Positions 39,350-61,175 are shown, counted from the first letter of the stretch. The stretch: 64,000 nt of DNA from Candidatus Latescibacterota bacterium (GCA_965198115.1 OZ240241.1:1-64000), one strand, 5' to 3'. A program made the numbers and translations. The notes: generated from the sequence alone by a model not told the origin.

Positions 39350-40996
39350 ATGAATCTGCTCGCAATTAACTTCAATCACGACGGATCTGCTGCTTTGATG
39401 TGCGATGGTGTGATAACCGGGTTTGTCAATACGGAGAGATTTTCGCGAAAGAAAAAGCAACCAGGAATCCGAGAATGTGATATAGATGAATTACTCGGGC
39501 AGGGAGGTATACGTATTGACGAGATTGACGGCGCCTTGATGTGCAACCTGAATAACATGGATTCCCCGGACATCCCTAGGCTGTACGGAACAGATCTCAA
39601 AGAAGAGTGGCTTGGATTCGAAGTGGATCCTGATCAACGACATGTGACGATAAGGGGAAACCGAATCCGCTGTAAAGTGAATCCAGATCACCACTTGCTC
39701 CATTGCGCCCTGGCGTTTTACACGTCACCGTTCGATTCTGCAATGGTCTTCTCATCGGATCCCGTGGGTTGGGCATCTTACGTGGGTAAAGGCCACGAGA
39801 TGAGAGGAGTCCAGAACGTCCCTGGTCAGTTCAACGCGCCAGAGCTTTATAGTAGGGTTGCCGAGTCCCTGTTTGGTACAGGGATTATGGGAGCAGGAAA
39901 GGTAATGGGGCTCGCCCCTTACGGGTTTCGAGAGTTGGATCTGGACTATGCTCAATTATCAGATGTCAGGACTACTATATCGCTTTATCGAGCCTTACGG
40001 AAACTTGGCATAGGCAGGGTGGTAGTCCAGGAAGATGAAAAAGCATATAATGCTAGTCTTGCATACCACACACAGGAGATTCTCGACTTTCAGTTAATCT
40101 CCATCCTCAAAGAGTTACACGAGGTTTCGGTGCAGGAAGGTGTTGATCCGAATCTATGCTTGGGAGGGGGAACGGCTCTCAATTCCGTCGCGAATCAGAA
40201 GGCGTTCAGCCACAGCCCGTTCACAGATCTTTTCTTGCATCCCGCGTGCGGAGATGACGGTACTACACTTGGGGCAGTTCTCTGGCACTGGCATCACGTG
40301 ATGAAGAATCCTAGGAGGAACTACTTAAACACCGACCTTATGTACACGAAAAAATGCTATCGAAGTGATCAGGTAGATGCCGTTCTGTTGTCAGGGAAGT
40401 ATCGAAACCATCTTACTGTCTGGAAGCATCCTGATCCTCTCCCGACGGTTGCTCGGATGATCAGCTCTGGCGCGATTGTAAGTCTGTTCGAGGGAGGAAG
40501 CGAAATTGGACCTCGTGCTCTTGGTCATAGAAGCATAATAGCAGATCCCCGTCGGCTGGGGATGCGGGATCAATTGAACGTAAAGGTAAAACATAGAGAA
40601 GCCTTTCGCCCGTTTGCCCCAGCAGTAATACAAGAACACTCCAGTTCGTGGTTTGATCTAAATTATAGCCCATTCATGTTACGGGTTGCGAATGTATTGA
40701 GGCCCAAAGAAGTCCCATCTATCACACACGTGGATGGCACCGCGCGCATCCAAACGGTCGGCCCTAATGACGATCAACGATTCCGAAAGTTGCTTGAACA
40801 CTTCTACTCAATGACGGGAGTTCCTGTTCTTCTCAATACGTCCTTCAACATTAGAGGTGAACCCATAGTAGAAACGCCTGAGGACGCAATAAGTGCGCTA
40901 CTACGGTCCGAAATGGACTGTGTCGTCTTTAGTGACTGCATCGTGCAAAAGAGAGACGGTGGTGATAAGTCCGCTTCCAGTTGTGTCGCCGATTGA
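39350..40996 (+). CDS. Carbamoyltransferase (NodU/CmcH/TobZ family)
   Basis: HDGSAAL, ERFSRKK, HHLLH, GKVMGLAPYG, GGTALN, GDDG, GPRALGHRSI, KHREAFRPFAP, HVDGTARIQTV, NTSFN. Confidence 0.95.
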   Translation: MNLLAINFNHDGSAALMCDGVITGFVNTERFSRKKKQPGIRECDIDELLGQGGIRIDEIDGALMCNLNNMDSPDIPRLYGTDLKEEWLGFEVDPDQRHVTIRGNRIRCKVNPDHHLLHCALAFYTSPFDSAMVFSSDPVGWASYVGKGHEMRGVQNVPGQFNAPELYSRVAESLFGTGIMGAGKVMGLAPYGFRELDLDYAQLSDVRTTISLYRALRKLGIGRVVVQEDEKAYNASLAYHTQEILDFQLISILKELHEVSVQEGVDPNLCLGGGTALNSVANQKAFSHSPFTDLFLHPACGDDGTTLGAVLWHWHHVMKNPRRNYLNTDLMYTKKCYRSDQVDAVLLSGKYRNHLTVWKHPDPLPTVARMISSGAIVSLFEGGSEIGPRALGHRSIIADPRRLGMRDQLNVKVKHREAFRPFAPAVIQEHSSSWFDLNYSPFMLRVANVLRPKEVPSITHVDGTARIQTVGPNDDQRFRKLLEHFYSMTGVPVLLNTSFNIRGEPIVETPEDAISALLRSEMDCVVFSDCIVQKRDGGDKSASSCVAD

Positions 40997-41059
40997 GAAA
41001 GTACCTACCTTTGTCTCCTTTCTCCGATGCGGCTCTTTCGAATTTCTGGCGAAACGAGA

Positions 41060-41890
41060 TTAAGTTGAAGTCTCAAGAAGTTCTGGGATCTTAGTAGTTA
41101 GTCGGTCAAGGGGTTTCAAAAGGTTGGAGGCCTTTAGGAATTCAACGAATATAGTTCGGTTCACTGCGTTTACGAAGTTTTCGGTAACAGCCAGACTCGT
41201 TTCTAGATTCCGTACTTGGTGCCACCACAGACTTGGTATATATATGATCTCCCCTGGCAGCTGTTTGCAATAGTAGGGGTTGGCCTTCTCAATCCTCTCT
41301 GGGTTGGTATCGAAAGCGTCAATACATTCCAGTCCGAGGTGTTCAACCTTCCCTGGGGGAAAGATCATCCACTCCTTAGCACCGCTGATTAGCGCCAGCC
41401 ATGCAGCTGTGTGCCACACATCATTGTGAAGGGGGGAGCCTGAGCCGGCTGGACCTAAGAAGATCCATTTCCAGCTAGGTCGTCGGTCTAGTGGGTATAT
41501 GTCTAGCCAATTGCTCAAATAATGCGGAACCGTGTAGTGCTTCAGCAACTCAGGATGTCTCTTCTCAATGCTCCAATTTTTCAGATATAGTGTGCGACTG
41601 TCGGTCCTTTCCTCTATGTAGTCTATGTAATCGGCCACCGGCATTGTGGATGTTTCTTCCACCACGCCCATCCCTTGGGCCCCTGGCTTCTGATCTGTGA
41701 CATTAACAACGAAGCTGCCGAATTTATCCCTTAAGAAGTCAAGGCTCCAGGTCTGCATGGCTTGCCATTGTCCAGCCTCCCCTCGTATGATTGCAGGTTT
41801 CGAGGTATTTCCGAACCTGGCCATGAATTCCCCCGATGATTTTTTACCCTTACCCTCAAGGACCTCAACGGAATTGGGCTCTATCTCCAT
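41060..41890 (-). CDS. JmjC/cupin-like Fe(II)/2-oxoglutarate oxygenase
   Basis: LYLKNW, WIFLGPAGS, HND (HxD), GAKEW, PGEIIYIPSLWWHQV. ATG at 41890 after ggagg. Confidence 0.92.
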   Translation of the reverse strand: MEIEPNSVEVLEGKGKKSSGEFMARFGNTSKPAIIRGEAGQWQAMQTWSLDFLRDKFGSFVVNVTDQKPGAQGMGVVEETSTMPVADYIDYIEERTDSRTLYLKNWSIEKRHPELLKHYTVPHYLSNWLDIYPLDRRPSWKWIFLGPAGSGSPLHNDVWHTAAWLALISGAKEWMIFPPGKVEHLGLECIDAFDTNPERIEKANPYYCKQLPGEIIYIPSLWWHQVRNLETSLAVTENFVNAVNRTIFVEFLKASNLLKPLDRLTTKIPELLETST

Positions 41891-41929
41891 GGTTACCTCC
41901 AATTCAGGGGCATTCACACCTTGCCCGGA

Positions 41930-44690: not shown

Positions 44691-44710
44691 TTGCCCGGAC
44701 GTATATTTTC

Positions 44711-46345: not shown

Positions 46346-48727
46346 ATGATTAAAACATACTTTGCGCTGTGGATCCGAAACATTCGCAGGGACAGTCTGC
46401 AATCAGCAGTGAATATCTTCGGCTTATCGCTAGGAATGGCCTGCTGTATTCTGATTTTGTTGTACGTTCAGAGTGAGTCGAGCTACGATCAAAGTCACCA
46501 TAGTGGGGATAGGATTTTTCGTCTTGCGCAAGAGGTCGAGATTTCGGGAAGGACAAGATCTGTCGCTATTACGACCTATCCTATGGGCGAAGCATTAGTA
46601 GAAGAATACCCTGAGGTTTCAGAAATCGTCAGATTTAGAAAGGACGATGGAAGGACTCTTGTGGAGATCGGGAAAGACCGGTTCTTCGAGACAGGCGTAT
46701 TGTTTGTGGAGCCGAATGTCTTTAGAGTCTTCGACTTTCCTTTAGCAAGTGGGGATGCGCATGATGCGCTACGTAACCCGAGTTCCGTGGTCATTGCAGA
46801 ACACAGAGCTAAGAAGTACTTCGGGTCAACGAATGACGCATTGGGGCAGTCCCTAGTTATTGGCGGCGAATCCTACCAGATTTCAGGCGTAGCGGCGGAT
46901 ACGCCCGCGAAGAGCCACATCGAGTTTAATTTTCTGATTCCACTGTTGGAGGGTCGAGGGTGGTTGGATTTCAGGTACAAGTACTACACCTACATAGTCT
47001 TGGAGACGGAATCTTCGGATAAAGAGCTTAACGCAAAGCTGCCCGAATTCATCGAAAGACATCTTGGCGATCAACTACGAGCGGGGAGAATGGAACTTTC
47101 GCTCTTTCTGCAGAAGGTGACAGATATACATCTTCATTCGAACCTTGAGTACGAGATCAGCGGAAATGGTGACATACGTAGGCTTAGGATTTTTGCGGCT
47201 GTAGCAATCATGGTGCTTCTACTTGCTTGCTTCAACTATGTGAACCTATCAACTGCGCGCGCTGAGAGGCGTTTGAGAGAAATCGGGCTTCGAAAGACCG
47301 TAGGGGGAGGTCGTTCACAAATCTTTGGGCAGCTCCTTGGTGAGTCGTTCTTCCAGGCGTTGCTTGCTATGATGATCTCATTGCTATTGGTTGAGGGGGC
47401 AATTGGGGAATGGGGTGGTCTGCTTGATCTTAGGGTGACCTCTCCTTGGGGAGGGAGCTGGGCTGCGTGGCTAGTACCTCTTGGAGTTGGGCTGTTTTCG
47501 GGAATTCTCTCGGGAAGCTACCCAGCCGTTATCCTATCATCCGTTCGTCCCACCGAGGCTGTACTTGGATCATTTAAGACAAGATCAGCCTTACGCCGCA
47601 TTCTTGTTGTTTTTCAGTTTGTCATCTCTGGAGTCCTCATGATTTGCACTTGTGCGGTGTATAATCAGTGGGAATTCATGCGGACGAAATCTCCAGGATT
47701 TCAAAAGGAGAACATAGTTGTTATCCCTCTGGCAGGTAAAGATGACCGTGTAATTGATCAGTACAAGACAGCCATTCGAGCATACTCGCAGGTGATCAGC
47801 GCATCCGCATCCTCTATGGTTCCGGGTCGCGAGATTGCTAGTGGCCTTTTCCGGTCGTCCTCAGACAAGGAGAAGACCGAGCCACTCATGGTTAACTTGA
47901 TTAACGTCGTAGATCACGAGTTGGTCGATACATACCGCTTCAGCGTTTTAAAAGGGAGAACGATGCGCGACACCGACCAAGGAGTGGTCTTCTTGATCAA
48001 CGAATCTGCTCTGAGGATGTTTGGATGGAGTTCGATCGAAGGTCAGCAGCTGGAACAAGTCTATCCGGCGGGGGATGAGTTGAATGTCGAGGCTGTAGGG
48101 CCAGTGATAGGTGTTGTGGAGGATTTCCACTACCAATCCCTACATCATCTCGTCGAGCCCCTAGTTGTTGCGAATCTCCAGGAATGGGTCCAGTACCTCT
48201 CGATTCGAATTACAGGAGATGAGTTTGGGCGTACGCTGGTTTACCTTAGCGACCAGTGGCGCACCATCTCGCCTGAAACTCCATTTGAGTATTTTCTTCT
48301 TGATGCCGATCTGGAAAAACTATACCTCAAGGAGGAACGACAGAGCGCTATGCTCGGTGCATTCGCGGCAATTGCCATCATGTTGGCTGGCATGGGAATG
48401 TTCGGCCTAGTGTCGCAAACGACTCGACAGAGGATCAGGGAAATCGGAATGCGCAAGGTGCTTGGCGCGAAAAACTGGCAGTGCGCAACAGTCCTGCTTG
48501 GAAGACTCCTGCTGCTCTTGGGGATTTCGAACGTGATCGCATTGCCCATAGCATACATCGCATTCCGCCAATGGGTGCGTGATTTTCCATATCAGACGGA
48601 GATAGGTTCTCTCCCGTTCCTCATTGCGGCGGGTATGACTCTTCTAACCACGGTCGTCGCGATAGCCCACGAAATAAGCATTACCGCCCGAACAAGCCCG
48701 ATTGCAGTATTGCGGCGGGCCGATTGA
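46346..48727 (+). CDS. MacB/FtsX-like ABC transporter permease (duplicated architecture)
   Basis: NIFGLSLGMACCILI, DIHLHS, ACFNYVNLSTAR...REIGLRKTVG, LVVFQF, REIGMRKVLGA. Confidence 0.92.
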   Translation: MIKTYFALWIRNIRRDSLQSAVNIFGLSLGMACCILILLYVQSESSYDQSHHSGDRIFRLAQEVEISGRTRSVAITTYPMGEALVEEYPEVSEIVRFRKDDGRTLVEIGKDRFFETGVLFVEPNVFRVFDFPLASGDAHDALRNPSSVVIAEHRAKKYFGSTNDALGQSLVIGGESYQISGVAADTPAKSHIEFNFLIPLLEGRGWLDFRYKYYTYIVLETESSDKELNAKLPEFIERHLGDQLRAGRMELSLFLQKVTDIHLHSNLEYEISGNGDIRRLRIFAAVAIMVLLLACFNYVNLSTARAERRLREIGLRKTVGGGRSQIFGQLLGESFFQALLAMMISLLLVEGAIGEWGGLLDLRVTSPWGGSWAAWLVPLGVGLFSGILSGSYPAVILSSVRPTEAVLGSFKTRSALRRILVVFQFVISGVLMICTCAVYNQWEFMRTKSPGFQKENIVVIPLAGKDDRVIDQYKTAIRAYSQVISASASSMVPGREIASGLFRSSSDKEKTEPLMVNLINVVDHELVDTYRFSVLKGRTMRDTDQGVVFLINESALRMFGWSSIEGQQLEQVYPAGDELNVEAVGPVIGVVEDFHYQSLHHLVEPLVVANLQEWVQYLSIRITGDEFGRTLVYLSDQWRTISPETPFEYFLLDADLEKLYLKEERQSAMLGAFAAIAIMLAGMGMFGLVSQTTRQRIREIGMRKVLGAKNWQCATVLLGRLLLLLGISNVIALPIAYIAFRQWVRDFPYQTEIGSLPFLIAAGMTLLTTVVAIAHEISITARTSPIAVLRRAD

Positions 48728-48799
48728 GGGCGACGCTGTTCCTCCCAAGCGCATCCAGGACCCGGTGAGCAGAGACTGATTGAGAGTTGCAAGCCTATA

Positions 48800-50193
48800 G
48801 GTCAAGTCCCATAGTCAGTTGAAACTCATCGGGCCCCGTAGTTTGGTCAGGCTCTCTGCCGAGCATTCTGTTCGTTGTCGAGATTCAGATCTTTGTTCAG
48901 TGCTTGCCTGAGTAGGGGAAGATGTTTGTATCCGCTCACGCGTCGCAGGCGAGGTTCGATGTCGAGGAGTGCGGCAGCCACCCATCTGTGTCTCTGGGGA
49001 GAGTTGTGTTCCAGCGTCTGACCTTCCGAGTGAGCTCGCCGGTCATGCTGTTGAGGGCTTCGATGCAGTAGTTGGTGGTTCGGAAGCTTCGTTTCAGGAA
49101 TGGGAGCATCCCCAGCCGGTGGAGGGTCAGGGTTTCCTCCTGGCCTTCCTCGAGGCTCGTTACGGCAGACTGATTCATCAGCCTCAGTTCGGGTTTAAGT
49201 GATTCGAGTGCGGCCTTTGCCTCCTCGTAGGTGTCGCAGTCATAGGCTTTCTGGAGCTTCCGTCGGATTCGCGGACGTTCTGGCCTCCGGGAGGTAGCTG
49301 ACGACATTCTCGCGCTTGTGCCACTGACAGCGATGCACGCGCACATATCCTTTGAGGGCTTTGGTGACGGCACTGCGGAGTCCCTTTGAGCCGTCAAGCA
49401 CAACGAGGAGGCCTTGATCGTAGCACAGGCCTCTCCGGATGAGGTCCTGGATCAGCTGGCGGCAGATCCGTTCGTTCTCCGTCGCCGATTCGACGAAGCC
49501 CAGGGGGATCTTCTGGCCGTCCATCGTGACCCCCAGAGCGATCACGATCTCTTCGTCGGCAAAGCTCTTTCCGTCAATGAACAGGGTCACGAAGCCGTAG
49601 TCGTCGAGGGGACGCTCCTGGAACTGCTTCAGCTTCTTCGCGGTGGCTTTGATGAACCGCCGCGAGACGGAGGACGCTGAGATACCAAACGCTTCTGGAA
49701 CCGATTCGGCACAGGCCTTGTAGTTGCGGCACGAGATCCCCTTTGAGAACACGAAGCAACAGCCCCTCGTCCGTCTTCTTGGGCGTCTGTAGAGCCCGGT
49801 GTGCAGCCAGGGAAACCTCTGCGTCGGCCTCGACGTCGCGCACCCGGGGAACGTCTAACGGGAGCTTCTGGTCCATCAGATACACGGATCCCTTATGGCT
49901 TCCCCACCGACGATGCGCCTGCTCCGAACCTTTGCGCGCATACCGAACGCCTGCGAGCTGCTCGACCTCCTGCTGGAGGAGGTCTGCCACTGCCTCCAGA
50001 CCCAACGGGATCAACGCCTGGATCACCGACAAACGCGTCTCCAAATCGATGACATCGCCCTCAACCTTGACTTCACCATCGCCTACAAATAGCTTCTCCA
50101 TCTGGGCTCCTTTCTTACGGGTATACGCTCCTACACGTCTACCCAACGTAAGTTTGGAGCCCTCTAAGTTTCAACTACGATAGGCACAACACC
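48800..50193 (-). mobile_element. IS256 type A, several frameshifts
   Basis: Both ends present; imperfect TSD agcctata / agccctata. Confidence 0.9.
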
Positions 50194-50266
50194 AGCCCTA
50201 TAAAGAAGTTTGCAAAGTGACAGGCGCACCTTAGATTATAGCTGCATTTGCAATATGAAAATATAT

Positions 50267-51686: not shown

Positions 51687-51801
51687 AAATATATGTACCC
51701 TCCTTGTATCATTCGGTTGAAGGAGTAGATAGCAGAGCCGTACTTCCGTCCTGATCGAGCGGGGAGCTGTTTCACTCATTTCGTATCAAGGAGAGACCGG
51801 T

Positions 51802-51945
51802 ATGAAAGTGCTCAAGAAGCCAGTAGTGGCGCCCAGTGAGCAGGAGCTGCTCTACGAGGCGCTGGATTGCACCGAGGAGTGCTGTAGAGGCGGATGTCGG
51901 GTCAGAATCTTCGACACCGATGATACAGACGACATCCTCTTCTAA
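51802..51945 (+). CDS. Putative RiPP precursor peptide, 47 aa: MKVLKKPVVAPSEQELLYEALDCTEECCRGGCRVRIFDTDDTDDILF
   Basis: Hand-translated; below the ORF-track cut-off. RBS aaggag at 51788-51793. Leader-like N-terminus, Cys cluster, and position directly upstream of the rSAM/SPASM gene. Confidence 0.85.
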   Translation: MKVLKKPVVAPSEQELLYEALDCTEECCRGGCRVRIFDTDDTDDILF

Positions 51946-52124: not shown

Positions 52125-52240
52125 TTCGTGTGAGGGTCATCCGTGCGGCGTAAGAACTCAGACGAATCTCCACTCTTGAAATGAGAGTAGTTCCCCGTTC
52201 GATCAGGACAATCAAATCAGTCGTGTAGGAGGACTCTACG

Positions 52241-53743
52241 ATGAAATGCAGTGTGTACAACCTCATTATAGACCTTGGAGAAGACGATCGATACTTGCTC
52301 TTTAATACGCTTTCGGGAGCGCTGATTGAAGCAGAAGCCGATGTAGCACATATGCTAAAGAGACATATTGAGCCGACCCCAACTCCGAGATTGCAGCAGA
52401 CCTTTTCAGAAAACAAACCAATTCCTGAAAATGCTATCGCAGGCATTGACGAAGAACGTAGAGGGGTTTTGTCAGACTGTGGATTCTTGGTAGAAGACCA
52501 GAAGGATGAAGTCGCTGAAGTGAGGGAACTGGATGTCACCCGATTTGCGGCTAATCGAGATGCTGATCGGGGAACACTCTCGCTCACGATCCTGCCCAGT
52601 ATTCGATGTAATTTCGAGTGCTTCTATTGCTTTGAACCGTTGTCCCTAAGGCAGCAAGATAGTTCGATGACTGAGGAGGTTCAGGACAAGCTATGTACAT
52701 ACGTTGCGGAGAAGCTTCCGCTGCCAGAAATCAGAAAACTTAGCACAACGTGGTACGGTGGAGAACCTCTTCTCTACCCTCAGATCGTCGATTCTCTGCA
52801 GCGACGGATGAACGCGATTGCGGATGCGGAAGGCGTAAATGTGAAGAGCTCCATCGTCACGAACGGGTTTCTCTTGAGCCGAGATAACAGCGATATGCTT
52901 GTGGAGAACGGCATCACGACCGCCCAGGTAACACTCGACGGCCCTGCCAAAATTCACAATAAGAGGCGGCTGTACACACCAGATAGAAACGCGAACTACG
53001 ACACAATCCTTACCAATCTCGCTAATGCAAACCCCGAGATGGATGTCATCATCCGCGTCAATGTCGGATCACACAATTCTGAGACAATAGAAGAATTGGT
53101 AAACGATCTCACCGAAGCTCGAATCTGGCCTTACCGACGGGGAATCGGTGTCTACTTGGCTCCCGTAACTGGAGGTAAAGACTCACTACCTCGAGGGGAA
53201 TATCTATCCCTTGAAGATGATTTCCGACTGGATATGGTCCGCAAATTCAACGAGTTGACCGATGGACCTAGAGCGAAGCTCGAGTTCAAACTTCCTTCGC
53301 TCACTAACATTTCTCAATGCGGTCACATAGTGGACGAAAAACACATCTGGGTGGTTGATCGTGTGGGGGATGTTTTCCGGTGCTGGGATGTTCCTGGCCA
53401 GGAGAGTCATTGTGTTGGCACGTTGGATGACCTGATTCACGATAGGATCAACGGGCTCAATCGTTGGGTCATGAATCCAGAAATACGTGAGGAGACGGGA
53501 TGCTATAAGTGCAAGATGGCCCCAGTATGTACTGTCCCCTGTCCCTCGCATTACTTCTCTGAATGGAAATCTGGCGAGTATCTCGGAAAATACGACGACG
53601 GAAATCCTTTTTGCTGCGATTGGAAATTCGGGATCGAGAACAGGCTAGCTTCCGAGTACAAGTTCTACTCTGAGTCTCCTGAGTTGGTCTATGGGTTTCC
53701 AGGTGAAGGTAGCACGGAGAACTTACTCCAGATTGCTGACTAA
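52241..53743 (+). CDS. Radical SAM/SPASM domain peptide maturase
   Basis: CNFECFYC, WYGGEPLL, VTNG, QVTLDG; SPASM C...GDVFRC...CYKCKMAPVCTVPCP...C. N-terminal extension resembles an RRE. RBS aggagg. Confidence 0.93.
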   Translation: MKCSVYNLIIDLGEDDRYLLFNTLSGALIEAEADVAHMLKRHIEPTPTPRLQQTFSENKPIPENAIAGIDEERRGVLSDCGFLVEDQKDEVAEVRELDVTRFAANRDADRGTLSLTILPSIRCNFECFYCFEPLSLRQQDSSMTEEVQDKLCTYVAEKLPLPEIRKLSTTWYGGEPLLYPQIVDSLQRRMNAIADAEGVNVKSSIVTNGFLLSRDNSDMLVENGITTAQVTLDGPAKIHNKRRLYTPDRNANYDTILTNLANANPEMDVIIRVNVGSHNSETIEELVNDLTEARIWPYRRGIGVYLAPVTGGKDSLPRGEYLSLEDDFRLDMVRKFNELTDGPRAKLEFKLPSLTNISQCGHIVDEKHIWVVDRVGDVFRCWDVPGQESHCVGTLDDLIHDRINGLNRWVMNPEIREETGCYKCKMAPVCTVPCPSHYFSEWKSGEYLGKYDDGNPFCCDWKFGIENRLASEYKFYSESPELVYGFPGEGSTENLLQIAD

Positions 53744-53807
53744 GGCTGAACTGATTTCGGACTTTATGAAGCTTCTGACGCCGATCTCTTTTCTGGGAAG
53801 CTGCGAA

Positions 53808-55679
53808 ATGAAATTGCTGGGTCTGAGGTTTGTGCTTGTAGTATGGATCACTACTGCTTGCACATACGACGTTACCGCAGCAGAACCGTACGACCTAAGC
53901 TACAGCGTATTCGCCCAGGACTCCGTGCTGTACAGATGGAACACGTCGGAAGGAGTGGTAGATGGTATGCTGGTCCGCCACAGATTCCCTCCCTTGGAAC
54001 TCTGGGAGACATACCTATCGGAGGGGCTAGAAGCTCAGGAATACACGGAGAACGTGGTCTTCGCCTCGCGGGATTCCTCTGTTTATGGATGTGGCTTTGG
54101 AATAGACTATCCAGTCCTCATACCCCGGAACGTACATCCGTACCTGACGGCACGCATATACGCTGATGGGCTTGGGCCCATTAAAGTCTGGATCCAGCTC
54201 CAGAACGATTGGATTTCCGTTCCCAAGGTAATCTCCGCCAAGGGCTACGACAAGATTGAGATAGGCCTAGGTAAACTGATAGGTTCTAGTAGGAAAATTT
54301 CCGGCGTGAAGATGATCGCTGAACGAAGGAGCTTGAATGGCAGACTCATCGTTGGGGCTGTTCAGGTGACGACGAGGAGATTCCTAAAATGGCGATTTGG
54401 GGATAGGAGACCCGTTCCTATCAGGGCCCCATTGGGTGGCAGAGGCCCATTCGAAAGCTGGCCTCAGTGGGTGGGGTCTTTCGGTGATGGACCGGCGTTG
54501 AGATTTGGTGGTGGAACTGTCCCGGCGATGGCCAACCTGATGTCTGATCTGTTAAGAAAGTATTCTCGATACAGCATGAAGGACGTTAGTGTGAGCCAGG
54601 TGCTACGCCAACACGAGCAGCTTCTGCGTCCAGATATTGGGATCATAGAGTATTTAGATGGGCTGGAAGAGATCCTCGTACCACTCGGTGATACTCATTT
54701 TCGAGTTAATAGACCGACCTACAGACACAGTACAACTCAACTCAATGATGTTGTGAAGTTCTATAGAATTGACGGACGTGTTATCGTTTCCGCTGTCTTC
54801 AGTCCTCGTCTTCAAAAGGTGATCTCGGAAGGCGACGAAGTCACTGCCGTTGACGAAATGCCCATTGAGGATCACATAACGACAAGAACTATGTCCCTGG
54901 CAGGATCTACGGATTGGATCCGGGACCGGATCGTGATCGAGCGGCTGCTGACCAAGGAGGACTCTGTCGCAACTACAAGGGTCACCTTTCGGCGACCAGA
55001 TGGACAAGAGTATTCGATTGAACACCATACGAGCGATAGTCTGATGAGAGTCATCCCAAAGAATTTTCTAAAGGGAAGGTTCCACTACAAAGAGTTGGGA
55101 GAGTTCGCATACATACGTATAGGCACCTGGAGCGAAAAGACCTGGCCGTTCTTCTACTCCTACATTGACCGACTGAAAGAGAGCAAGGGGCTAATTCTTG
55201 ATCTGCGGAGTAATGGTGGAGGAGACCTTTCCTTCTGTAGAATCGCTTCGTGCTTTGTAGACAAGCCATCAGTGATTTTCTCCGTTTGCAACATCGAAGG
55301 TGAGGGGGTCGAATCCATTCTTTTAAGACCAGATCCCTTCTTCTTCTATCGTGGCCCGGTTGCTGTCCTAGTGGATACAAGAACCGGCTGTGCTTCAGAG
55401 TTATTCGTGAGTGCGATCAAAAGGTATCACAAGGACACCATAGTAGTCGGTCAGAGCCCGACAAGTGGCGCAGTCGGTTTCATCAGAACGATATCGCTTC
55501 CGGGAGGGAACGAGATCACCTTTCCTGAACCCGTTTTGGACGCCTACAGTCGTGATCTCGAAGGAGTTGGTGTACAACCAGATATGAAAGCCAGCTTCGA
55601 ATCATACCGGGACCTTGCACCTTATGACGATTCGCTTCTCGATCTTGCTATAGAGGCTCTTGCTCATCGTGCTATGTGA
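53808..55679 (+). CDS. S41-family peptidase-like secreted protein with a PDZ-like domain
   Basis: Signal-like N-terminus, GDTH, GDEVTAVD, YIRI, LILDLRSNGGG, TGCASE, EGVGVQPD. Start at 53808 or 53766. Confidence 0.85.
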   Translation: MKLLGLRFVLVVWITTACTYDVTAAEPYDLSYSVFAQDSVLYRWNTSEGVVDGMLVRHRFPPLELWETYLSEGLEAQEYTENVVFASRDSSVYGCGFGIDYPVLIPRNVHPYLTARIYADGLGPIKVWIQLQNDWISVPKVISAKGYDKIEIGLGKLIGSSRKISGVKMIAERRSLNGRLIVGAVQVTTRRFLKWRFGDRRPVPIRAPLGGRGPFESWPQWVGSFGDGPALRFGGGTVPAMANLMSDLLRKYSRYSMKDVSVSQVLRQHEQLLRPDIGIIEYLDGLEEILVPLGDTHFRVNRPTYRHSTTQLNDVVKFYRIDGRVIVSAVFSPRLQKVISEGDEVTAVDEMPIEDHITTRTMSLAGSTDWIRDRIVIERLLTKEDSVATTRVTFRRPDGQEYSIEHHTSDSLMRVIPKNFLKGRFHYKELGEFAYIRIGTWSEKTWPFFYSYIDRLKESKGLILDLRSNGGGDLSFCRIASCFVDKPSVIFSVCNIEGEGVESILLRPDPFFFYRGPVAVLVDTRTGCASELFVSAIKRYHKDTIVVGQSPTSGAVGFIRTISLPGGNEITFPEPVLDAYSRDLEGVGVQPDMKASFESYRDLAPYDDSLLDLAIEALAHRAM

Positions 55680-55736
55680 CATCGGGAAGTTAAGGGTTAC
55701 ACATAGTGAAAATCTCGGAGTCGAAGGGACCGGCAC

Positions 55737-56969
55737 GTGAGGTTTCTGTTTTGCCCTATGGCAACATATGGATTTGTCTATCCGGCCATCGGAATCGCGC
55801 TAGAACTGAGTCGAAGGGGGCATGACGTTGCTTTCGTGACCGATAAGTCGTTCGACCACGTTCTAGCAGGTGAGGGGTTGCGAAGGATTCCAAACGGACG
55901 AAGTGATAGAAGAAGCTTCATTATCGGGGACTGGGGCGAACCTGTCAGTGTCTGTTCTCAGGTTCGTCACATTCGATTCGCACTTGATGAATTTCGACCG
56001 GACGCGTGTGTGTCGTCGATTTTCTGTTTCGGAGCGCTGATAGCCAGGAAGTTATACGACCTACCCACGGCGGTGATAGGGCTTTGTACCTATATGTTTG
56101 CCCACCCGGATGACCTCAGGACCCAAAGCGAGATTACTCCCTCTACGCGATCACTACAGCTCTCTGATGGATTCAGAGAAACCTACAATACTACCGGTCG
56201 CCTGTTTAAGATACCGGAAATGGGGTTGTGCGAATTTATTGAAGAGATGCCGGTACTTGGAGACCTGTTTCTGCTTCAGAATCTTGATGATCTCATCGAA
56301 GATTCAGATAGGTTGCCGGGACGAGTGCATCTAGTAGGACCGTGTGGCTGGGATTCGCCAACCACAGATTCGGAGCTTGTCGACTGGATCAGGCAAGGAC
56401 CGGCAGCGGGAGATCCGATTATCTACGCGCAGCCGGGGGCACTCTTCGGGGCAAATTCGTTCTGGCCGGTCCTGACCAAGGCGCTGGAAGACGAAAGTGT
56501 GAGAGTAGTGGCCTCGGTTGGTAGGATGACGGGGAACGGTGATTACTCAAGCCTGCCTTCAAACTACTTCGTACGCGCACACGTGCCCCACCGACTCGTA
56601 CTCCAGGTTGCAGATGGCGTTGTAACAGAGGGGCACACCAGTATAGTTCTCGCAGCACTCTCAGCAGGAGTGCCTTTGATGCTCATTCCTCACGGCGGCG
56701 AGGAGTTTGATTGCGCTGAAATGTGTATCCGCGCGGGTGTCTGTGTCGGGATCAACCATGAGGAGTTGTCTCGTAACAATATGAAGCTGAAGCTGCGTGA
56801 TCTCCTTCAGAGGACTGATATCCGAGAGCGTTCTACGAGGATTAAAACACTCATCCAAAATAACAACGGCCACAGTCGCGCAACAGACTTGATCGAAATT
56901 TTAGGCATGGAAAGGAGACAGATCCTCCGCTCTTCGCTTTCGGCAAAGAATGTGCATTTGTCACCTTAG
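55737..56969 (+). CDS. GT1 (MGT/EryCIII-like) glycosyltransferase
   Basis: G..YP.IGIALELSRRGHDVAFVT, HLVGP, VPH..VL..AD.VVT.G, ALSAGVPL. Confidence 0.88.
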   Translation: MRFLFCPMATYGFVYPAIGIALELSRRGHDVAFVTDKSFDHVLAGEGLRRIPNGRSDRRSFIIGDWGEPVSVCSQVRHIRFALDEFRPDACVSSIFCFGALIARKLYDLPTAVIGLCTYMFAHPDDLRTQSEITPSTRSLQLSDGFRETYNTTGRLFKIPEMGLCEFIEEMPVLGDLFLLQNLDDLIEDSDRLPGRVHLVGPCGWDSPTTDSELVDWIRQGPAAGDPIIYAQPGALFGANSFWPVLTKALEDESVRVVASVGRMTGNGDYSSLPSNYFVRAHVPHRLVLQVADGVVTEGHTSIVLAALSAGVPLMLIPHGGEEFDCAEMCIRAGVCVGINHEELSRNNMKLKLRDLLQRTDIRERSTRIKTLIQNNNGHSRATDLIEILGMERRQILRSSLSAKNVHLSP

Positions 56970-57040
56970 GAGTTGCTACAAAATACTAAACGATATCATT
57001 AGCTGAGAAGCTTGTCAGAGTGGCCCATCACGCGAATGAA

Positions 57041-57065
57041 GCTCGTCACTTATTTCGTGACGAGC
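57041..57065 (+). terminator. 9-bp-stem hairpin downstream of GT1
   Basis: gctcgtcac-ttatttc-gtgacgagc; no clear U-tract. Confidence 0.35.
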
Positions 57066-57093
57066 CCTTAGAGGTTAAGGTATTCAAAATTGA

Positions 57094-58513
57094 GGCTATA
57101 TCCGGATCTCTCAACGAGATGAAGTGGGTGAAGGTGCCGTGGTTCCTGGCATGGGGGCGCGGTTAGAGTGTGCGGAACCTCTTCGGAATCTGCTCAGGGA
57201 TGTTTATGTCTCCGACGGTAAGGAAGATCATATCGTTGAATGCGTCGAGTGTGCGGAATCCGCTGGCTCGGTTCTTGACGATTTGGACGATTCGGTTGAG
57301 GCCTTCGGCGATGGCGTTGGTAAGACGCGTGTTCACGAATGCGAGGACGCCGAAGAAGTGCTGTCGCAGGGTCCTGACGAACTTTCGCAGGGGTTCAAGT
57401 CGACTTCTGAGTGCGGACGTCGTCCAGCATTTCAGGAAGCGTTCGGCAGCCCAGGGCGCTTTGTATTCCCAGAACTGCTCGAACTCGTCCTTGAGTCTCC
57501 AGGCTCTATAGATTCGGTAGTTCGCCTTCTCCAGTGCTTCGAGTGTCCGAGTATCCCCTCTGGAGCGTGTCGCTGAGTGCCGGTAGAGGAGCCATCGGAG
57601 GCCCTTCATGGCTTTGCGCTCATCCGGGGCAGCTTTACGCCACTGGTCCTTACGGACCTCGTCAACGGCGGCATTGAGAGCCTTGACGATGTGAAAGCGA
57701 TCGAGGACCAGCTTGGCATTCGGACAGTGTTCCTGGATGGCTCCGATGTAAGCTTCGCTCATGTCGCAGCAGGCCCACTCGATCTTGGATCTCCGGTAGG
57801 GACTGAGAGCCTCTGTGAAGAACTGATCGATCGTTTTACGCGCCCTGCCGCGGCCAACCCACACCACGCAGGAGCGGTCCAGATCGTAAACGAGCGTGGC
57901 GTACCTGTGACGCTTGGCGTAGGAGATCTCGTCGATCCCGATGGTTTTGAGCCCTCGGATACGATGACCTTCACGAAGCCGCGTGATGGATCGGTGAAGG
58001 AGATCCGACAGCGTCGAGGCAGAGATGCGCAGTAACTCGGACGCCGCCTTCTGCGTCATGGTCTGGCAGTAGCGCAGCATGGCATACTCGAAGCGATACG
58101 TCACCCGAGAGAACCGCTCCGCCCACGGAATCTCCTCGACCACACGACCGTGGGTAGGACACCGAATCTCCCGAGGATGGTAGAGAAGCCAGACCCTCCA
58201 CCCGCACACCGGAATGTCACGCCACCGACGCGGATGGGGCATTGTGCGGACGATTTTACCTCGACGGCCGCACTCCGGACAACAACAACCATTCTTATGG
58301 GGCTTTACGGCGATGACGAAGCAGCTTCTCCCCTCAAACCACCAGCTGACAACACGGAACCCCTTGAATCTCAGCAGTTTCGATAGTAATCTGCTCCCGG
58401 TCATAGGTCGCACCCCCTTCGCTTTGATTGTCCTACACACACAACCAAGCGTAGGGAACGATCTATGACCTTGTCATTCTATAGTTTCACCGTTGAGAAA
58501 CCCGGATAGAGCC
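57094..58513 (-). mobile_element. ISL3 copy, intact transposase
   Basis: TSD aaaattga. Confidence 0.95.
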
Positions 58514-58600
58514 AAAATTGAGACTTCAGCTCCCAGGAGTTGCTGCTATAACAAAGGAATCGGTTGGCCTTGCTGCTAACATAAGGAACATGGGGGAAAT

Positions 58601-60319
58601 TTGGAGGAAGATCAGACAGGTCTGATGAAGATGAGGCGAATGGCCGCGGGGGTTTACCCACACGCAATTGGCTTAGGAATCGTCTCAATAGTCGGTGTCT
58701 CGGTTGGGATCGCCAAGCCCGTGGTTTTTTCTAGAGTAATAGACCAGGGGCTTGTCGAAAACGACTGGGATACGACGTTTCGTCTTACGAAGTACCTTGG
58801 TCTAGTAGGTCTCTTTGGACTACTGACATCCTCCATCCACCGGATCCTCGCAAGTTACATTTCGAATAGAATCGTTGAGAATATGAGGAACTGGCTAGTA
58901 GCCAGAGTCTTCGTTCTACAGTATGAACACTTCGTCCAAACTCCCAGAGGGGAAATCCTGGCCACAATCGAGGACGATTGTGCCAACATAAGGGAATTCT
59001 CAGTTTCTACTCTGCAGTCAGCGATGAGAAGCTTCCTTAGCTTTGTCGCGGCCATATGCTATGTCGGGTGGGTGCAATGGAAGATGCTATTGGCTGGAGC
59101 CCTTGCCGTACCATTTATGGCCATCTGCATGAGATTGTTCCGAAGGGTTGTATATGAGTGCGGATCACAAGTGGCTGAAGCAAGAGCTGTGGCTAAGAAC
59201 TCTCTGGTGAATACTGTAGAGAGCATGAGTTCATTAAGGCAATTGGGCTTATCCGATTGGTCGCGTGATGTTATTCGAGGTGATCTTGGGAAGCTTCGGA
59301 GGAGTAGTATCCGTGAGCAAGTATGGGAGAGCCTGACCGAACTGTCCTCGGGTTCTGTCTCATTGTTTAGCTATTTGGTGATTCTGGGATACGGTGGGTT
59401 GCTGGTTTCAACTAATGAGATAGGAATAGGGCATCTACTTGCCTTCCTAACGATGAGGCAAAGTTTTTTTGCGCCATTGGATTTCGTTGATCGTGTCTAC
59501 AAAGGTTACTTCAAGGCCAAACGTTCTCGCGAACGGATTGATTCACTGTCCAGCCAGCCACTCGAGACCGGTTTCCACGGTGGGGATAGCATCCCCGACG
59601 ATTTCCATCCGCATTCCCTATCCATCGAAGACGTATCATTCTCGTTCGGAGACAAGGCTCTGCTATGCTCGGCCAATGCGACATTCACCACAGGGTGGAA
59701 CGAACTAAGAGGACCCAATGGATCAGGCAAGACAACACTCCTAGGAATCATTCTCAAAGTCCGTAACCCTCAACAGGGCCGGATCTTTGTGGACGGTTAC
59801 AATGTTGCGAACTTCAACAACCGCAGCTGGCGAAGCCACATTTCTGTTGTTGCACAGGAGCCCTTCATATTTCAAGGGACACTGAGGGAGAACCTTAGAC
59901 TTTTCGATGAGAACATTGATGACTCTATGATTGATAGCATGCTTGAGCAGGTAGGTCTTCGAAAGTGGTGCGAAGAGAGGGGGCTCGACACAGAACTATC
60001 CCAAGGCGGAAGCGAAATTTCAGGAGGACTTAAGCAACGTTTGGCGATTGCCAGAGCTCTTCTGAGAAGCTCCGCCGTCTACATTTTCGATGAGCCAGTT
60101 TCCCAGGTCGACTTGCTTACGAAAGGAGACTTGCTTCGCGTGATGAAGAGATACACTCGCGGCGCAATTGTGATAGTTATATCCCATAGCGATCTTAGAG
60201 ATGTAGCGGACCGGATCTTTCACGTGAAGGATGGCCGAGTCAAAGGCGAAGAGGTTAAGCCCGAAGCTCTGTGTGAGCTAGATCCGTCGGTGCAAGGCGT
60301 TGTCGGACATCCATCCTAA
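58601..60319 (+). CDS. ABC exporter, fused TMD-ATPase (no C39 peptidase domain)
   Basis: TM helices, GPNGSGKTT, VAQEP, ISGGLKQRLAIARAL, IFDEP, ISH. Confidence 0.92.
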   Translation: MEEDQTGLMKMRRMAAGVYPHAIGLGIVSIVGVSVGIAKPVVFSRVIDQGLVENDWDTTFRLTKYLGLVGLFGLLTSSIHRILASYISNRIVENMRNWLVARVFVLQYEHFVQTPRGEILATIEDDCANIREFSVSTLQSAMRSFLSFVAAICYVGWVQWKMLLAGALAVPFMAICMRLFRRVVYECGSQVAEARAVAKNSLVNTVESMSSLRQLGLSDWSRDVIRGDLGKLRRSSIREQVWESLTELSSGSVSLFSYLVILGYGGLLVSTNEIGIGHLLAFLTMRQSFFAPLDFVDRVYKGYFKAKRSRERIDSLSSQPLETGFHGGDSIPDDFHPHSLSIEDVSFSFGDKALLCSANATFTTGWNELRGPNGSGKTTLLGIILKVRNPQQGRIFVDGYNVANFNNRSWRSHISVVAQEPFIFQGTLRENLRLFDENIDDSMIDSMLEQVGLRKWCEERGLDTELSQGGSEISGGLKQRLAIARALLRSSAVYIFDEPVSQVDLLTKGDLLRVMKRYTRGAIVIVISHSDLRDVADRIFHVKDGRVKGEEVKPEALCELDPSVQGVVGHPS

Positions 60320-60338
60320 AGGAACCGTGGAGGATAGG

Positions 60339-61175
60339 ATGGAAAACACATTAGATGTTGTTAGACGGCCAGACGTTTCGCCGGAAACATACTTGAAACT
60401 ATATGGGAAACCGAACAAACCATTTGTCATTGCGGATGGCGCAGAGGAATGGAAGGCCCGATCAACCTGGAACATGAGATTCTTTGAAGAGCGTTATGGA
60501 GATGTCAGACTGCAGGTGACACGGATAGCGAGAGGGAGAACGGAATCCGCTGGTGTAAAGACCATAGCTGAATACGCAGACTACCTCCGCACTCAGAACC
60601 ATGAAAAGGAGCCACTCTATCTCCGAGATTGGGTCCTGGAAGAGAAGTACCCTGAGCTTCTTTCTCACATCTCCGTGCCTTCCTATCTATGCAACTGGCT
60701 TGACCGTATCCCGATTAGCGGCAGTCGTAGACACTTCTGGCGAGGTTGGAAAGGTTGGATTTTCATCGGCCCAAAAGGAACTGGAACTGAGCTCCATACG
60801 GACGTTGTTAAATCCTCGGCCTGGCTGGCCCTCATAAGTGGACAAAAGGAGTGGGTATTAACCCCACCTAACGAACACGATCCAGCCACGTTTGCTAAAG
60901 TCGACCTGCTAAATCCTGACTATGAAGCCTATCCCTTCCTTCGGAATTCGAAGAGGATCTGCTACACCCAGCGTCCAGGAGAACTATTAGTCGTCCCGAG
61001 TGGATGGTGGCATCAGGTCTGTAACTCTGATGCCACCATCTCTGTTTCTGGGAACTTCATAAATGAATCCAACATACACTTCTTCTGTAAGGACTTGCTT
61101 GAGAACGGATCACTTGCTGAACTCAGAGACTACTCATGCTACATTCCAGAGATAGTCCCCTTTTTAGCATCCTAG
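60339..61175 (+). CDS. JmjC/cupin-like Fe(II)/2-oxoglutarate oxygenase (paralogue of 41060-41890)
   Basis: LYLRDW, WIFIGPKGT, HTD, GQKEW, PGELLVVPSGWWHQV. ATG at 60339 after ggagg. Confidence 0.92.
   Translation: MENTLDVVRRPDVSPETYLKLYGKPNKPFVIADGAEEWKARSTWNMRFFEERYGDVRLQVTRIARGRTESAGVKTIAEYADYLRTQNHEKEPLYLRDWVLEEKYPELLSHISVPSYLCNWLDRIPISGSRRHFWRGWKGWIFIGPKGTGTELHTDVVKSSAWLALISGQKEWVLTPPNEHDPATFAKVDLLNPDYEAYPFLRNSKRICYTQRPGELLVVPSGWWHQVCNSDATISVSGNFINESNIHFFCKDLLENGSLAELRDYSCYIPEIVPFLAS

What the first reader, a model, noticed from the sequence alone, without database searches (positions are those of the whole stretch)
39350..61175. Twin JmjC oxygenases alongside a carbamoyltransferase and glycosyltransferases: hydroxylate-then-decorate logic
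Seen: two intact paralogous JmjC genes (41060-41890 and 60339-61175), both with HxD...H, on opposite sides of the precursor. This ties the two halves of the locus together. Established: JmjC enzymes hydroxylate peptide residues, and NodU/CmcH enzymes carbamoylate hydroxyls. Inference: new hydroxyls (for example beta-OH-Asp or OH-Arg) serve as acceptors for carbamoyl or sugar groups. A poly-beta-OH-Asp tail could also chelate metal.
Basis: partly seen in the sequence, partly recalled or inferred. Interest (0 to 1): 0.74.

Follow-up and report, generated by a model that had tools for sequence, protein, structure and literature searches.

The report
Peptide cluster with bleomycin-like sugar tailoring
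Two intact iron-oxygenase genes sit in a transposon-riddled copy of a recently described orphan peptide-modification cluster, where they likely hydroxylate ornithine made from the peptide's arginines, while a neighbouring relative of the bleomycin carbamoyltransferase would more likely cap an attached sugar than the new hydroxyl itself.

Summary
In detail: two intact JmjC genes with HxD...H flank a 47-aa precursor. The locus is an IS-fragmented member of the orphan DD(I/V)LF RiPP family (flm/ohk, PMC12703449), with a peptide arginase just past the window end. Several cupins per cluster is already in print (ohk lists four). The two JmjCs are 35% identical and are rejected as sisters (AU p=0.0012). 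Their closest relatives appear to share a contig with a 54%-identical radical SAM enzyme, which links both to the cluster (indirect). They resemble JMJD6 and the ornithine hydroxylases PbsQ/BipG far more than the Asp/Asn hydroxylase FIH. JmjC genes track core Arg plus arginase (4 of 4 clusters versus 0 of 3), not the acidic tail, so hydroxy-ornithine is likelier than poly-beta-OH-Asp. The carbamoyltransferase is 48% identical to bleomycin BlmD and follows a GT9 gene, beside heptose-type sugar-activation genes, one broken. That points to hydroxylate, glycosylate, then carbamoylate the sugar. This cassette was seen in no other cluster of the family, so its link to the peptide is open. The scan noted this cluster's other genes in this genome; no matching note on other DNA. 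New variant; interest 0.5.

The parts
27223..27684 (-). RfaE domain II-type (heptose-1-phosphate) adenylyltransferase, intact; BlmC-like sugar activation (membership in the cluster uncertain)
   Evidence: TIGR02199 199.7 bits over cut-off 181.5; Pfam CTP_transf_like; island-like composition 0.0155, above the 95th percentile only
29330..30001 (+). 5' remnant of an RfaE domain I-type sugar kinase; frameshifted and cut by an IS
   Evidence: ORFs in different frames; TIGR02198 partial match at 29735-29959
31394..31663 (+). 3' remnant of the same kinase, behind the IS at 30003-31416
   Evidence: TIGR02198 partial match at 31406-31636
34434..36383 (+). GT9 (heptosyltransferase-type) glycosyltransferase, 649 aa, with an unassigned N-terminal part
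   Evidence: Pfam PF01075 E 5.8e-11; all 30 atlas hits GT9, best score 0.96
36419..39339 (.). Multi-copy IS block separating GT9 from the carbamoyltransferase; without it the two genes would be about 45 bp apart on one strand
   Evidence: self-BLAST map, sequence
39350..40996 (+). BlmD-group carbamoyltransferase, 548 aa
   Evidence: Pfam PF02543 + PF16861; 48% identity to BlmD over 539 aa; H10, H114, H118, D137, D302/D303 invariant in 18 aligned relatives
41060..41890 (-). JmjC1, JMJD6/PbsQ-like Fe(II)/2OG oxygenase, 276 aa
41923..46153 (.). Multi-copy IS block
46346..48727 (+). FtsX/MacB-type ABC permease; similar permeases are listed at the flm and ohk clusters
48777..51711 (.). Two multi-copy IS elements
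51802..51945 (+). 47-aa DD(I/V)LF-type precursor: 4 Cys (23, 27, 28, 32), 3 Arg (29, 33, 35), 3 Thr (24, 39, 42), acidic tail ending DDILF
   Evidence: family definition in PMC12703449
52241..53743 (+). Radical SAM/SPASM maturase, FlmE/OhkG-like
   Evidence: best NCBIfam hit NF052473, 220 bits, below the cut-off of 500
53691..55679 (+). S41 peptidase (FlmF/OhkF counterpart)
55737..56969 (+). Non-canonical GT1 (MGT-like) glycosyltransferase: Phe at the usual N-terminal His, Glu at the diphosphate-binding His
57075..58540 (.). Multi-copy ISL3-like element
58601..60319 (+). ABC exporter (membrane + ATPase), 35-36% identical to the exporters of related clusters in G129, G106 and G144
60339..61175 (+). 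JmjC2, JMJD6-like Fe(II)/2OG oxygenase, 278 aa, 19 bp behind the ABC stop
62706..64000 (+). S8 peptidase-DUF1611 fusion (runs past the window end). It is followed outside the window by an ACP, a peptide arginase (C1:64882-65760) and a 369-aa protein 27% identical to a BtrH_N protein of G106

Best explanation
The two JmjC genes belong to an IS-fragmented DD(I/V)LF-type RiPP cluster and likely hydroxylate the precursor at ornithines that the cluster's arginase is predicted to make from its Arg residues, while the BlmD-like carbamoyltransferase would act last, on a sugar that GT9 or GT1 would attach, rather than on the new hydroxyl itself. Shown: the genes, the family assignment, the IS structure and the relatives. 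Inferred, in order: Arg to Orn by the arginase (shown for FlmR and OhkR, inferred here); a Cys-based cross-link by the radical SAM enzyme; C-hydroxylation of Orn by one or both JmjCs at different positions or residues (by analogy to BipG/PbsQ and JMJD6); glycosylation; O-carbamoylation of the sugar (by analogy to BlmD); cleavage by S41/S8 and export. My odds by step: JmjCs act on the precursor about 0.7; the target is Orn/Arg rather than Asp about 0.75 given that; the carbamoyltransferase acts on a sugar about 0.7; the sugar cassette serves this peptide about 0.5. The broken kinase gene and the IS insertions mean the full pathway may no longer run in this strain.
For: Family: the precursor ends DDILF, and the rSAM, S41, S8, ACP, arginase and ABC genes match flm/ohk Tables S2-S3. 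JmjCs tied to the cluster: the only two in the genome and absent from 167 other genomes of the phylum. JmjC2 lies in the ABC-S8-ACP-arginase run. JmjC1's best relative P0163 (45-47%) and clade member P0166 have the same source and longest-contig length (Logan, 28,905) as the rSAM relative P0003 (54%), indirect evidence of a second twin-JmjC cluster. L033 is a flm-like cluster with arginase and a JmjC 33-34% identical to both. Basic-residue target: best PDB hit JMJD6 for both, FIH far weaker. JmjC1 is 33% identical (E 2e-31) to the cupin of a biphenomycin-type cluster with FHAFRF precursor, MNIO and B12 rSAM. BipG/PbsQ hydroxylate Orn and BipG does not act on Arg. JmjC/cupin genes are present in 4 of 4 clusters with core Arg plus arginase (window, flm, ohk, L033) and in 0 of 3 without a conserved core Arg (G129, G106, L044), although all 7 have acidic tails. 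Sugar route: 48% identity to BlmD against E 1e-47 to 1e-56 for TobZ, GdmN and NovN. BlmD acts on decarbamoyl-bleomycin after BlmE/BlmF. GT9 and the carbamoyltransferase are co-oriented and separated only by IS DNA. An RfaE-II adenylyltransferase, a type reported as a BlmC homologue, lies nearby. All these genes share the core cluster's foreign 4-mer signature (CarbT 0.022, reached by 0 of 1000 random 1650-bp windows; four other carbamoyltransferase stretches of the genome -0.027 to -0.066).
Against: No other cluster of the family examined carries a carbamoyltransferase, GT9 or GT1: flm and ohk tables (0 hits), G129, G106, G037, G144, L033, L044. None of the 120 listed carbamoyltransferase relatives shares a contig length with the close rSAM or JmjC relatives (compared by eye). 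The composition signal is not specific: an unrelated block at C1:74606-75889 scores 0.022 too. The genome has seven further carbamoyltransferase matches and its own RfaE, GT9 and GmhB genes, so the heptose-type block could be a surface-glycan remnant. GT1 lacks both the usual N-terminal His and the diphosphate-binding His, so it may be inactive or prefer a thiol or amine over a hydroxyl. The 4-versus-3 tally is small, the clusters are related, L044 is an incomplete 11.4-kb contig, and FlmI/OhkL/OhkB sequences were not compared directly. G129 has an arginase but no core Arg. The PbsQ-like protein is a long, unstably placed branch (UFBoot 68 as neighbour of the JmjC clade; unresolved in the 18-row tree). 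A related JmjC sits in a Nostoc NRPS/PKS cluster, so the family is not RiPP-specific. The contig-length link is indirect.
Confidence: 0.42

Rival explanations
1. The JmjCs tailor the peptide (hydroxy-Orn is an end point, as in biphenomycin), but the RfaE/GT9/carbamoyltransferase block is a separate, decaying cassette for a surface glycan or another metabolite that IS activity parked next door.
For: The cassette is absent from all 8 other family clusters looked at. The carbamoyltransferase faces JmjC1 tail-to-tail. The kinase is broken. GT9 and RfaE are classic LPS functions. Foreign composition is shared by unrelated island DNA.
Against: The carbamoyltransferase and JmjC1 lie in one single-copy block, 63 bp apart, with no IS between them. 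The enzyme is of the BlmD group, whose named members come from secondary-metabolite producers, and it matched 1 of 168 phylum genomes at E<=1e-70. A second GT lies inside the precursor operon.
Confidence: 0.28
2. One reading: the JmjCs make beta-OH-Asp (a poly-hydroxy, metal-binding tail) or OH-Arg, and the carbamoyltransferase and GTs use these hydroxyls directly.
For: The tail has five Asp residues. Two oxygenases could install several hydroxyls. CmcH/NodU-family enzymes do carbamoylate non-sugar hydroxyls (GdmN, MmcS).
Against: Clusters with the same acidic tail but no core Arg lack JmjC (0 of 3). FIH-type similarity is weak. The arginase would consume Arg. The enzyme is far closer to BlmD than to GdmN.
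Confidence: 0.1
3. The JmjCs hydroxylate a free or ACP-tethered building block (an acyl or aminoacyl unit, as in butirosin side-chain assembly) that is then transferred to the peptide.
For: The family carries an ACP and a BtrH-like protein. In flm and L033 the cupin lies directly between the S8 gene and the ACP gene. A related JmjC lies in an NRPS/PKS cluster.
Against: G129 and G106 have the ACP and a BtrH_N protein but no Cupin_8 match genome-wide. Characterised JMJD6/BipG-type enzymes act on peptide-bound residues.
Confidence: 0.14
4. The sugars and the carbamoyl group go on native acceptors (Cys thiol, Orn amine or Thr hydroxyl) independently of the JmjC hydroxyls; or the JmjCs act on tRNA or ribosomal protein.
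For: GT1 lacks the usual catalytic His, as CalG2 and EspG2 do (that CalG2 glycosylates a hydroxylamine is recalled). The precursor has 4 Cys, 3 Thr and potential Orn amines.
Against: For the tRNA or ribosome option: TYW5 similarity is marginal (E 8e-4), and the genes are confined to one island in 1 of 168 genomes.
Confidence: 0.06

Closest known systems
flm and ohk clusters of the orphan DD(I/V)LF RiPP family (Pfeiffer et al. 2025, PMC12703449)
   Same: Precursor ending DD(I/V)LF with core Arg and Cys; FlmE/OhkG-like rSAM; peptide arginase; S41 and S8 peptidases; ACP-size protein; ABC exporter; one (flm) or four (ohk) cupin/JmjC genes.
   Different: All 57 published precursors are from Bacteroidetes; this one is in a 59% GC genome as a 49-52% GC island. 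It has one precursor, heavy IS fragmentation, and a BlmD-like carbamoyltransferase, a GT9, a GT1 and RfaE-type genes that flm and ohk lack. The rSAM is below the family cut-off. No product or cupin function is known for the family.
Biphenomycin pathway JmjC hydroxylases BipG/BpmG/PbsQ (PMC12707348, PMC12257519)
   Same: A JmjC enzyme working after a peptide arginase; JmjC1 is 33% identical to a PbsQ-like cupin of such a cluster.
   Different: No MNIO, no B12 rSAM and no FRF motif here. Two JmjCs instead of one. JmjC2 is only 23% identical to the PbsQ-like protein, and the tree position is unstable.
Bleomycin sugar cassette BlmC/BlmD/BlmE/BlmF (Streptomyces verticillus)
   Same: Carbamoyltransferase 48% identical to BlmD; an RfaE-II adenylyltransferase of the type reported as a BlmC homologue; a glycosyltransferase directly upstream. 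The logic is hydroxylate, glycosylate, carbamoylate.
   Different: The scaffold would be ribosomal, not NRPS/PKS. The hydroxylases are JmjC type. The kinase part is broken, and no island-type epimerase was found (the nearby epimerase has host composition). That BlmE is GT9/RfaF-like and that BlmD's site is the mannose 3-OH are recalled, not checked; one preprint words BlmE as an epimerase homologue.
Human JMJD6 (lysyl hydroxylase)
   Same: Best solved-structure match for both enzymes, with the same HxD...H and K arrangement.
   Different: About 30% identity only; eukaryotic protein substrates.

Membership tests
DD(I/V)LF orphan RiPP family | Short precursor ending in DD(I/V)LF with several Arg | tested here: met
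   47 aa, ends DDILF, 3 core Arg (definition)
DD(I/V)LF orphan RiPP family | [quoted passage not shown] | tested here: met
   C1:64882-65760, PF12640 E 3.4e-18, all three motifs present
DD(I/V)LF orphan RiPP family | FlmE/OhkG rSAM above the NF052473 cut-off | tested here: not met
   Best family hit but 220 bits against a cut-off of 500; 0 of 168 phylum genomes pass. It is a divergent relative, not a member of the curated model
DD(I/V)LF orphan RiPP family | S41, S8, ACP, ABC exporter and cupin in the cluster | tested here: met
JmjC Fe(II)/2OG oxygenases | JmjC domain with HxD/E...H triad and 2OG-binding Lys | tested here: met
BipG/PbsQ ornithine hydroxylases | Supported clade with a PbsQ-like enzyme | tested here: inconclusive
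   UFBoot 68 in the 38-row tree, elsewhere in the 75-row tree, unresolved in the 18-row tree
BipG/PbsQ ornithine hydroxylases | Hydroxylates peptidyl Orn and not Arg | not testable with these tools
   needs an enzyme assay
FIH-type Asn/Asp beta-hydroxylases | Closest characterised relative is FIH | tested here: not met
   FIH E 6e-8 (JmjC2) and 9e-5 (JmjC1) against JMJD6 1.5e-24 and 7e-29
Recent sister paralogues | JmjC1 and JmjC2 form a clade of their own | tested here: not met
   AU p=0.0012 (18 rows, LG+G4); JmjC2 pairs with P0029 at 100/99
BlmD group of CmcH/NodU carbamoyltransferases | Both domains intact, full-length similarity to BlmD well above that to TobZ/GdmN/NovN/NolO | tested here: met
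   48% over 539 aa; others E 1e-47 to 1e-56 in PDB and 32-35% on plasmids
BlmD group of CmcH/NodU carbamoyltransferases | Carbamoylates a sugar on a glycopeptide | not testable with these tools
   BlmD's role from review passages; no assay for this enzyme
Bleomycin-type blmC/D/E sugar cassette | Intact sugar-activation enzyme, GT homologous to BlmE, and epimerase | tested here: inconclusive
   Adenylyltransferase intact, kinase broken; BlmE and BlmC sequences could not be fetched; the primary papers are not held
Canonical GT1 O-glycosyltransferases | N-terminal His (recalled as catalytic base) and His of the HGG diphosphate motif | tested here: not met
   G-F-V-Y-P against G-H-x-Y-P in CalG4 and CalG1; T-E-G-H against T-H-G in 4 of 4 alignments shown; that His is described as absolutely conserved in PMC3391682

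The most novel reading that the evidence does not exclude
This cluster makes a ribosomal glycopeptide carrying a bleomycin-type carbamoylated sugar, possibly a heptose, attached through a JmjC-made hydroxy-ornithine: the NRPS-era 'hydroxylate, glycosylate, carbamoylate' cassette grafted onto a radical SAM RiPP, with twin JmjCs marking a sub-lineage of the DD(I/V)LF family and a His-less GT1 doing a second, non-canonical glycosylation. My searches found no RiPP with such a cassette.
Probability: 0.22. Interest if true: 0.78.

Novelty: new variant of a known kind. Interest (0 to 1): 0.5.

Why it matters
The DD(I/V)LF family has no known product, and only its arginases have been characterised. 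This locus makes a cheap, sharp test: do the family's cupins hydroxylate arginase-made ornithine, as in biphenomycin? If the sugar cassette serves the peptide, it would add carbamoyl-sugar decoration, so far tied to non-ribosomal bleomycins, to RiPP chemistry, and supply a peptide-accepting GT9 and BlmD-type enzyme for glycopeptide engineering. If it does not, the locus is an ordinary, if divergent, family member next to a decaying glycan cassette.

Tried and rejected
Genome-collection scan with the single rSAM sequence found only 2 distant Nevskia loci. The metagenome scan with alignment A1 returned 80 loci at 23-32% identity; 2 of 80 (L033, L044) proved to be family clusters. Viral scans with A1 (5 loci) and with the carbamoyltransferase alignment A2 (40 loci, 28-43%) gave no locus combining two of the cluster's distinctive genes. 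The carbamoyltransferase at E<=1e-90 matched 0 of 401 sampled genomes of another phylum, with no positive control, so neighbours of BlmD-group genes elsewhere could not be read. Plasmid searches: no BlmD-group member (best 35%), no GT9 match; the S8-DUF1611 hits were a Bacillus MNIO cluster without JmjC, GT or carbamoyltransferase; the Fulvitalea cupin is in no RiPP context. Single-sequence AlphaFold of GT9 was unusable (pLDDT 36), so no fold search was run. The JmjC2-precursor complex job gave 'no answer' (score 0.02) and is no evidence either way. No RNA holder was listed among sequencing runs, so expression is unknown. G037 (arginase present, rSAM truncated, 108-aa cupin fragment, no precursor found), G144 (rSAM fragment, no precursor) and G024 (no such precursor) were left out of the 4-versus-3 tally. 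The NAD epimerase (21673-22341) and chorismate-binding gene (20182-21381) were rejected as cluster parts: host-like composition and a second genome copy. A tRNA or ribosome role was rejected as unlikely. The primary bleomycin papers were not held. Two papers opened for the CalG2 catalytic His did not state it. Scan notes by sequence gave five unrelated carbamoyltransferase windows and none for JmjC2; the word search found nothing.


Full report
Observation. They are 35% identical, the only two in the 8.43 Mb genome, and a JmjC2 query matched 1 of 168 genomes of the phylum, the window's own. Short-read contigs, probably from the source sample, reproduce the carbamoyltransferase+JmjC1 block and the GT9 block without differences.

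Anatomy. A self-BLAST of the first 90 kb shows single-copy blocks separated by IS elements with 85-486 hits. Read without the IS DNA, the order is: RfaE-II adenylyltransferase (minus), broken RfaE-I kinase, GT9, carbamoyltransferase, JmjC1 (minus), FtsX permease, precursor, rSAM, S41, GT1, ABC exporter, JmjC2, S8-DUF1611, ACP, arginase, 369-aa protein. The last three lie past the window end. GT9 and the carbamoyltransferase would be about 45 bp apart, and the carbamoyltransferase and JmjC1 stop 63 bp apart in one block. The genes from GT9 onward are 49-52% GC against 59% for the genome. A 4-mer model trained on six core genes scores GT9 0.029, the carbamoyltransferase 0.022, JmjC1 0.051, JmjC2 0.046 and GT1 0.007; the 99th percentile of 1000 random windows is 0.0004. 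Four other carbamoyltransferase stretches of the genome score negative, but an unrelated island block also scores 0.022, so this shows foreign origin, not shared function.

Family. The 47-aa precursor ends in DDILF and the rSAM's best model is FlmE/OhkG, at 220 bits against a cut-off of 500. This is the DD(I/V)LF orphan RiPP family of PMC12703449 (main text parts 1-3 of 5 read; supplement parts 1, 4, 5 of 8 and a term search). That paper shows FlmR and OhkR converting core Arg to Orn, says no product is known, and lists one cupin plus a 2OG oxygenase in flm and four cupin/JmjC genes in ohk. Multiple JmjCs in such a cluster are therefore already in print. Its supplement has 0 hits for 'carbamoyl' or 'glycosyltransferase'. 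Three earlier scan notes on this genome name the same family or parts; I had reached the family before reading them (note).

Are the JmjCs sisters, and do both belong? Among 1.84 billion representatives JmjC2 is the fifth-best hit for JmjC1. The two fall in a seven-member clade with support 0.988 (75 rows, FastTree) and 97 (38 rows, IQ-TREE), though this clade is unresolved in an 18-row tree. JmjC2 pairs with P0029 (51%, 100/99) and JmjC1 weakly with P0163. Holding the two together is rejected (AU p=0.0012), so they are not a local duplication. P0163 and P0166 both have source Logan and longest contig 28,905, as does the 54%-identical rSAM P0003. That suggests a second cluster with twin JmjCs and is the best, though indirect, evidence that JmjC1 belongs to the peptide cluster. 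The other clade members (P0029, P0164, P0165) share no contig length with the listed rSAM relatives. Metagenome locus L033 is a flm-like cluster with arginase, three precursors and one JmjC (33-34% to both) between the S8 and ACP genes.

What do they hydroxylate? For both, the best solved structure is JMJD6 (E 1.5e-24 and 7e-29), then JMJD5; FIH, the Asn/Asp beta-hydroxylase, is far weaker (6e-8 and 9e-5). JMJD6 is described as a lysyl hydroxylase in PMC2938197 (passages). After a Nostoc NRPS/PKS gene, JmjC1's best plasmid hits are Bacillus cupins; the one examined (33%) lies in a cluster with an FHAFRF precursor, B12-type rSAM, MNIO and TldD, that is a pbs/bip cluster. PbsQ and BipG hydroxylate Orn after a peptide arginase, and BipG ignores Arg (PMC12257519 and PMC12707348, passages). 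Across clusters with a readable precursor, JmjC/cupin genes occur in 4 of 4 with core Arg plus arginase (window, flm, ohk, L033) and 0 of 3 without a conserved core Arg (G129, G106, L044), while all 7 have acidic tails. Three broken or non-family clusters were left out (G037, G144, G024). The sample is small and related, L044 is a partial contig, G129 has an arginase without core Arg, and the PbsQ-like branch is unstable. Still, it favours Orn over the Asp tail.

What does the carbamoyltransferase act on? It is 48% identical to BlmD of Streptomyces verticillus over 539 aa, with relatives from other bleomycin-family producers among its 120 listed hits (their naming as TlmD and ZbmD is recalled), and much further from TobZ, GdmN and NovN. 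Review passages say BlmD converts decarbamoyl-bleomycin after BlmE and BlmF have attached the sugars (PMC11611020, PMC7017467); that the site is the mannose 3-OH is recalled. A preprint names a heptose-1-phosphate adenylyltransferase as a BlmC homologue (10.1101/2020.05.20.105809, passages), and such a gene passes TIGR02199 at 27238-27648. That BlmE is RfaF/GT9-like is recalled only; the same preprint words BlmE as an epimerase homologue, and the primary papers were not held. The left half therefore looks like a blmC/D/E-type sugar cassette in decay: the kinase is frameshifted and IS-split, although the host has its own kinase-like, adenylyltransferase and GmhB genes and a sub-cut-off GmhA match.

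Against linking this cassette to the peptide: none of 8 other family clusters examined has it; L033 has only a divergently transcribed GT2. None of the 120 carbamoyltransferase relatives shares a contig length with the close rSAM or JmjC relatives (by eye). For the link: it shares a single-copy block with JmjC1, matched only this genome among 168 at E<=1e-70, and a second GT sits inside the precursor operon. That GT1 is odd: Phe replaces the N-terminal His of CalG4 and CalG1, as Leu and Ser do in CalG2 and EspG2, and Glu replaces the diphosphate-binding His in 4 of 4 alignments shown (conservation stated in PMC3391682). It may be inactive or favour a thiol or amine acceptor.

Mechanism. Likely order: arginase (Arg to Orn), rSAM cross-link through Cys, JmjC hydroxylation of Orn, glycosylation by GT9 or GT1, carbamoylation of the sugar, proteolysis and export. 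Only the genes and their kinship are shown; every chemical step is inferred. Overall confidence 0.42; the main rival (0.28) keeps the JmjC-on-peptide part and drops the sugar cassette.

Novelty. Known family, known type of JmjC chemistry, new accessory genes. Full-text searches for a RiPP with a carbamoyltransferase plus JmjC or glycosylation gave 4 papers at 4 of 5 terms (two are the biphenomycin papers, in which 'carbamoyl' has 0 hits, two were seen as listings only), 0 papers and 0 papers for heptosyltransferase with carbamoyltransferase. A JmjC/RiPP search listed 4 papers (PMC11575548 listing only, 10.64898/2026.10.04.756588 passages). The library lacks most subscription journals, so this is not proof of absence. 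Verdict: new variant of a known kind; interest 0.5, rising to about 0.78 if the carbamoyl-sugar RiPP (probability about 0.22) is real.

Noticed in passing
window 62706-64000 and phylum-wide: The S8-DUF1611 fusion matched 86 of 168 genomes of the phylum at E<=1e-20, often in several copies, although JmjC, arginase and the FlmE-like rSAM are rare. This suggests a large, varied set of peptide clusters in this phylum.
   Followed up: partly
G129:C1 about 698600-698760 and G106:C1 about 522630-522790 (L016, L018); L044:2185-3219: DD(I/V)LF-like precursors without conserved core Arg (ending GDILF or DD/DEIIF), with a shared K-E-L-x-K-P leader motif; G129 keeps an arginase although its precursor core has no Arg.
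   Followed up: partly
window 55737-56969: GT1 lacks both conserved His residues (G-F-V-Y-P; T-E-G-H) yet is full length and inside the precursor operon.
   Followed up: partly
window 34434-36383: GT9 is 649 aa, about 250 aa longer than the GT9 clusters it resembles (373-431 aa); the N-terminal part has no Pfam match and could not be folded.
   Followed up: partly
window 616-11939: Defence-island genes: DUF4007 protein, cysteine desulfurase-like class V aminotransferase, DndB and an SNF2 helicase, consistent with phosphorothioation-type systems.
   Followed up: no
window 12144-62573 and whole genome: Extreme IS load: ISL3- and IS256-like elements with roughly 90-250 BLAST hits genome-wide, nearly all inserted between rather than inside the cluster's genes, except in the RfaE kinase. 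This hints at selection keeping the other genes open.
   Followed up: partly
L110:3700-11785 (CP128128.1): Biphenomycin-type cluster (FHAFRF precursor, rSAM, DUF692, TldD, cupin, M42 peptidase) on a mobilizable Bacillus cereus plasmid; similar cupins on five Bacillus plasmids.
   Followed up: partly
L109:11847-12660 (NZ_CP117772.1): A frameshift-split JmjC of the same broad family inside an unannotated NRPS/PKS cluster on a Nostoc plasmid.
   Followed up: no
L119:12030-19544 (NZ_CP139484.1): Bacillus plasmid cluster with ABC exporter, ACP, two 44-aa ORFs, S8-DUF1611 and a DUF692 (MNIO) enzyme: the same S8/ACP module serving a different peptide family.
   Followed up: no
L033:2734-5828 and 17177-19854: Beside the flm-like cluster: a divergent GT2, AraC regulator and split condensation domain, and two unassigned proteins (411 and 439 aa) after the exporter.
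   Followed up: no
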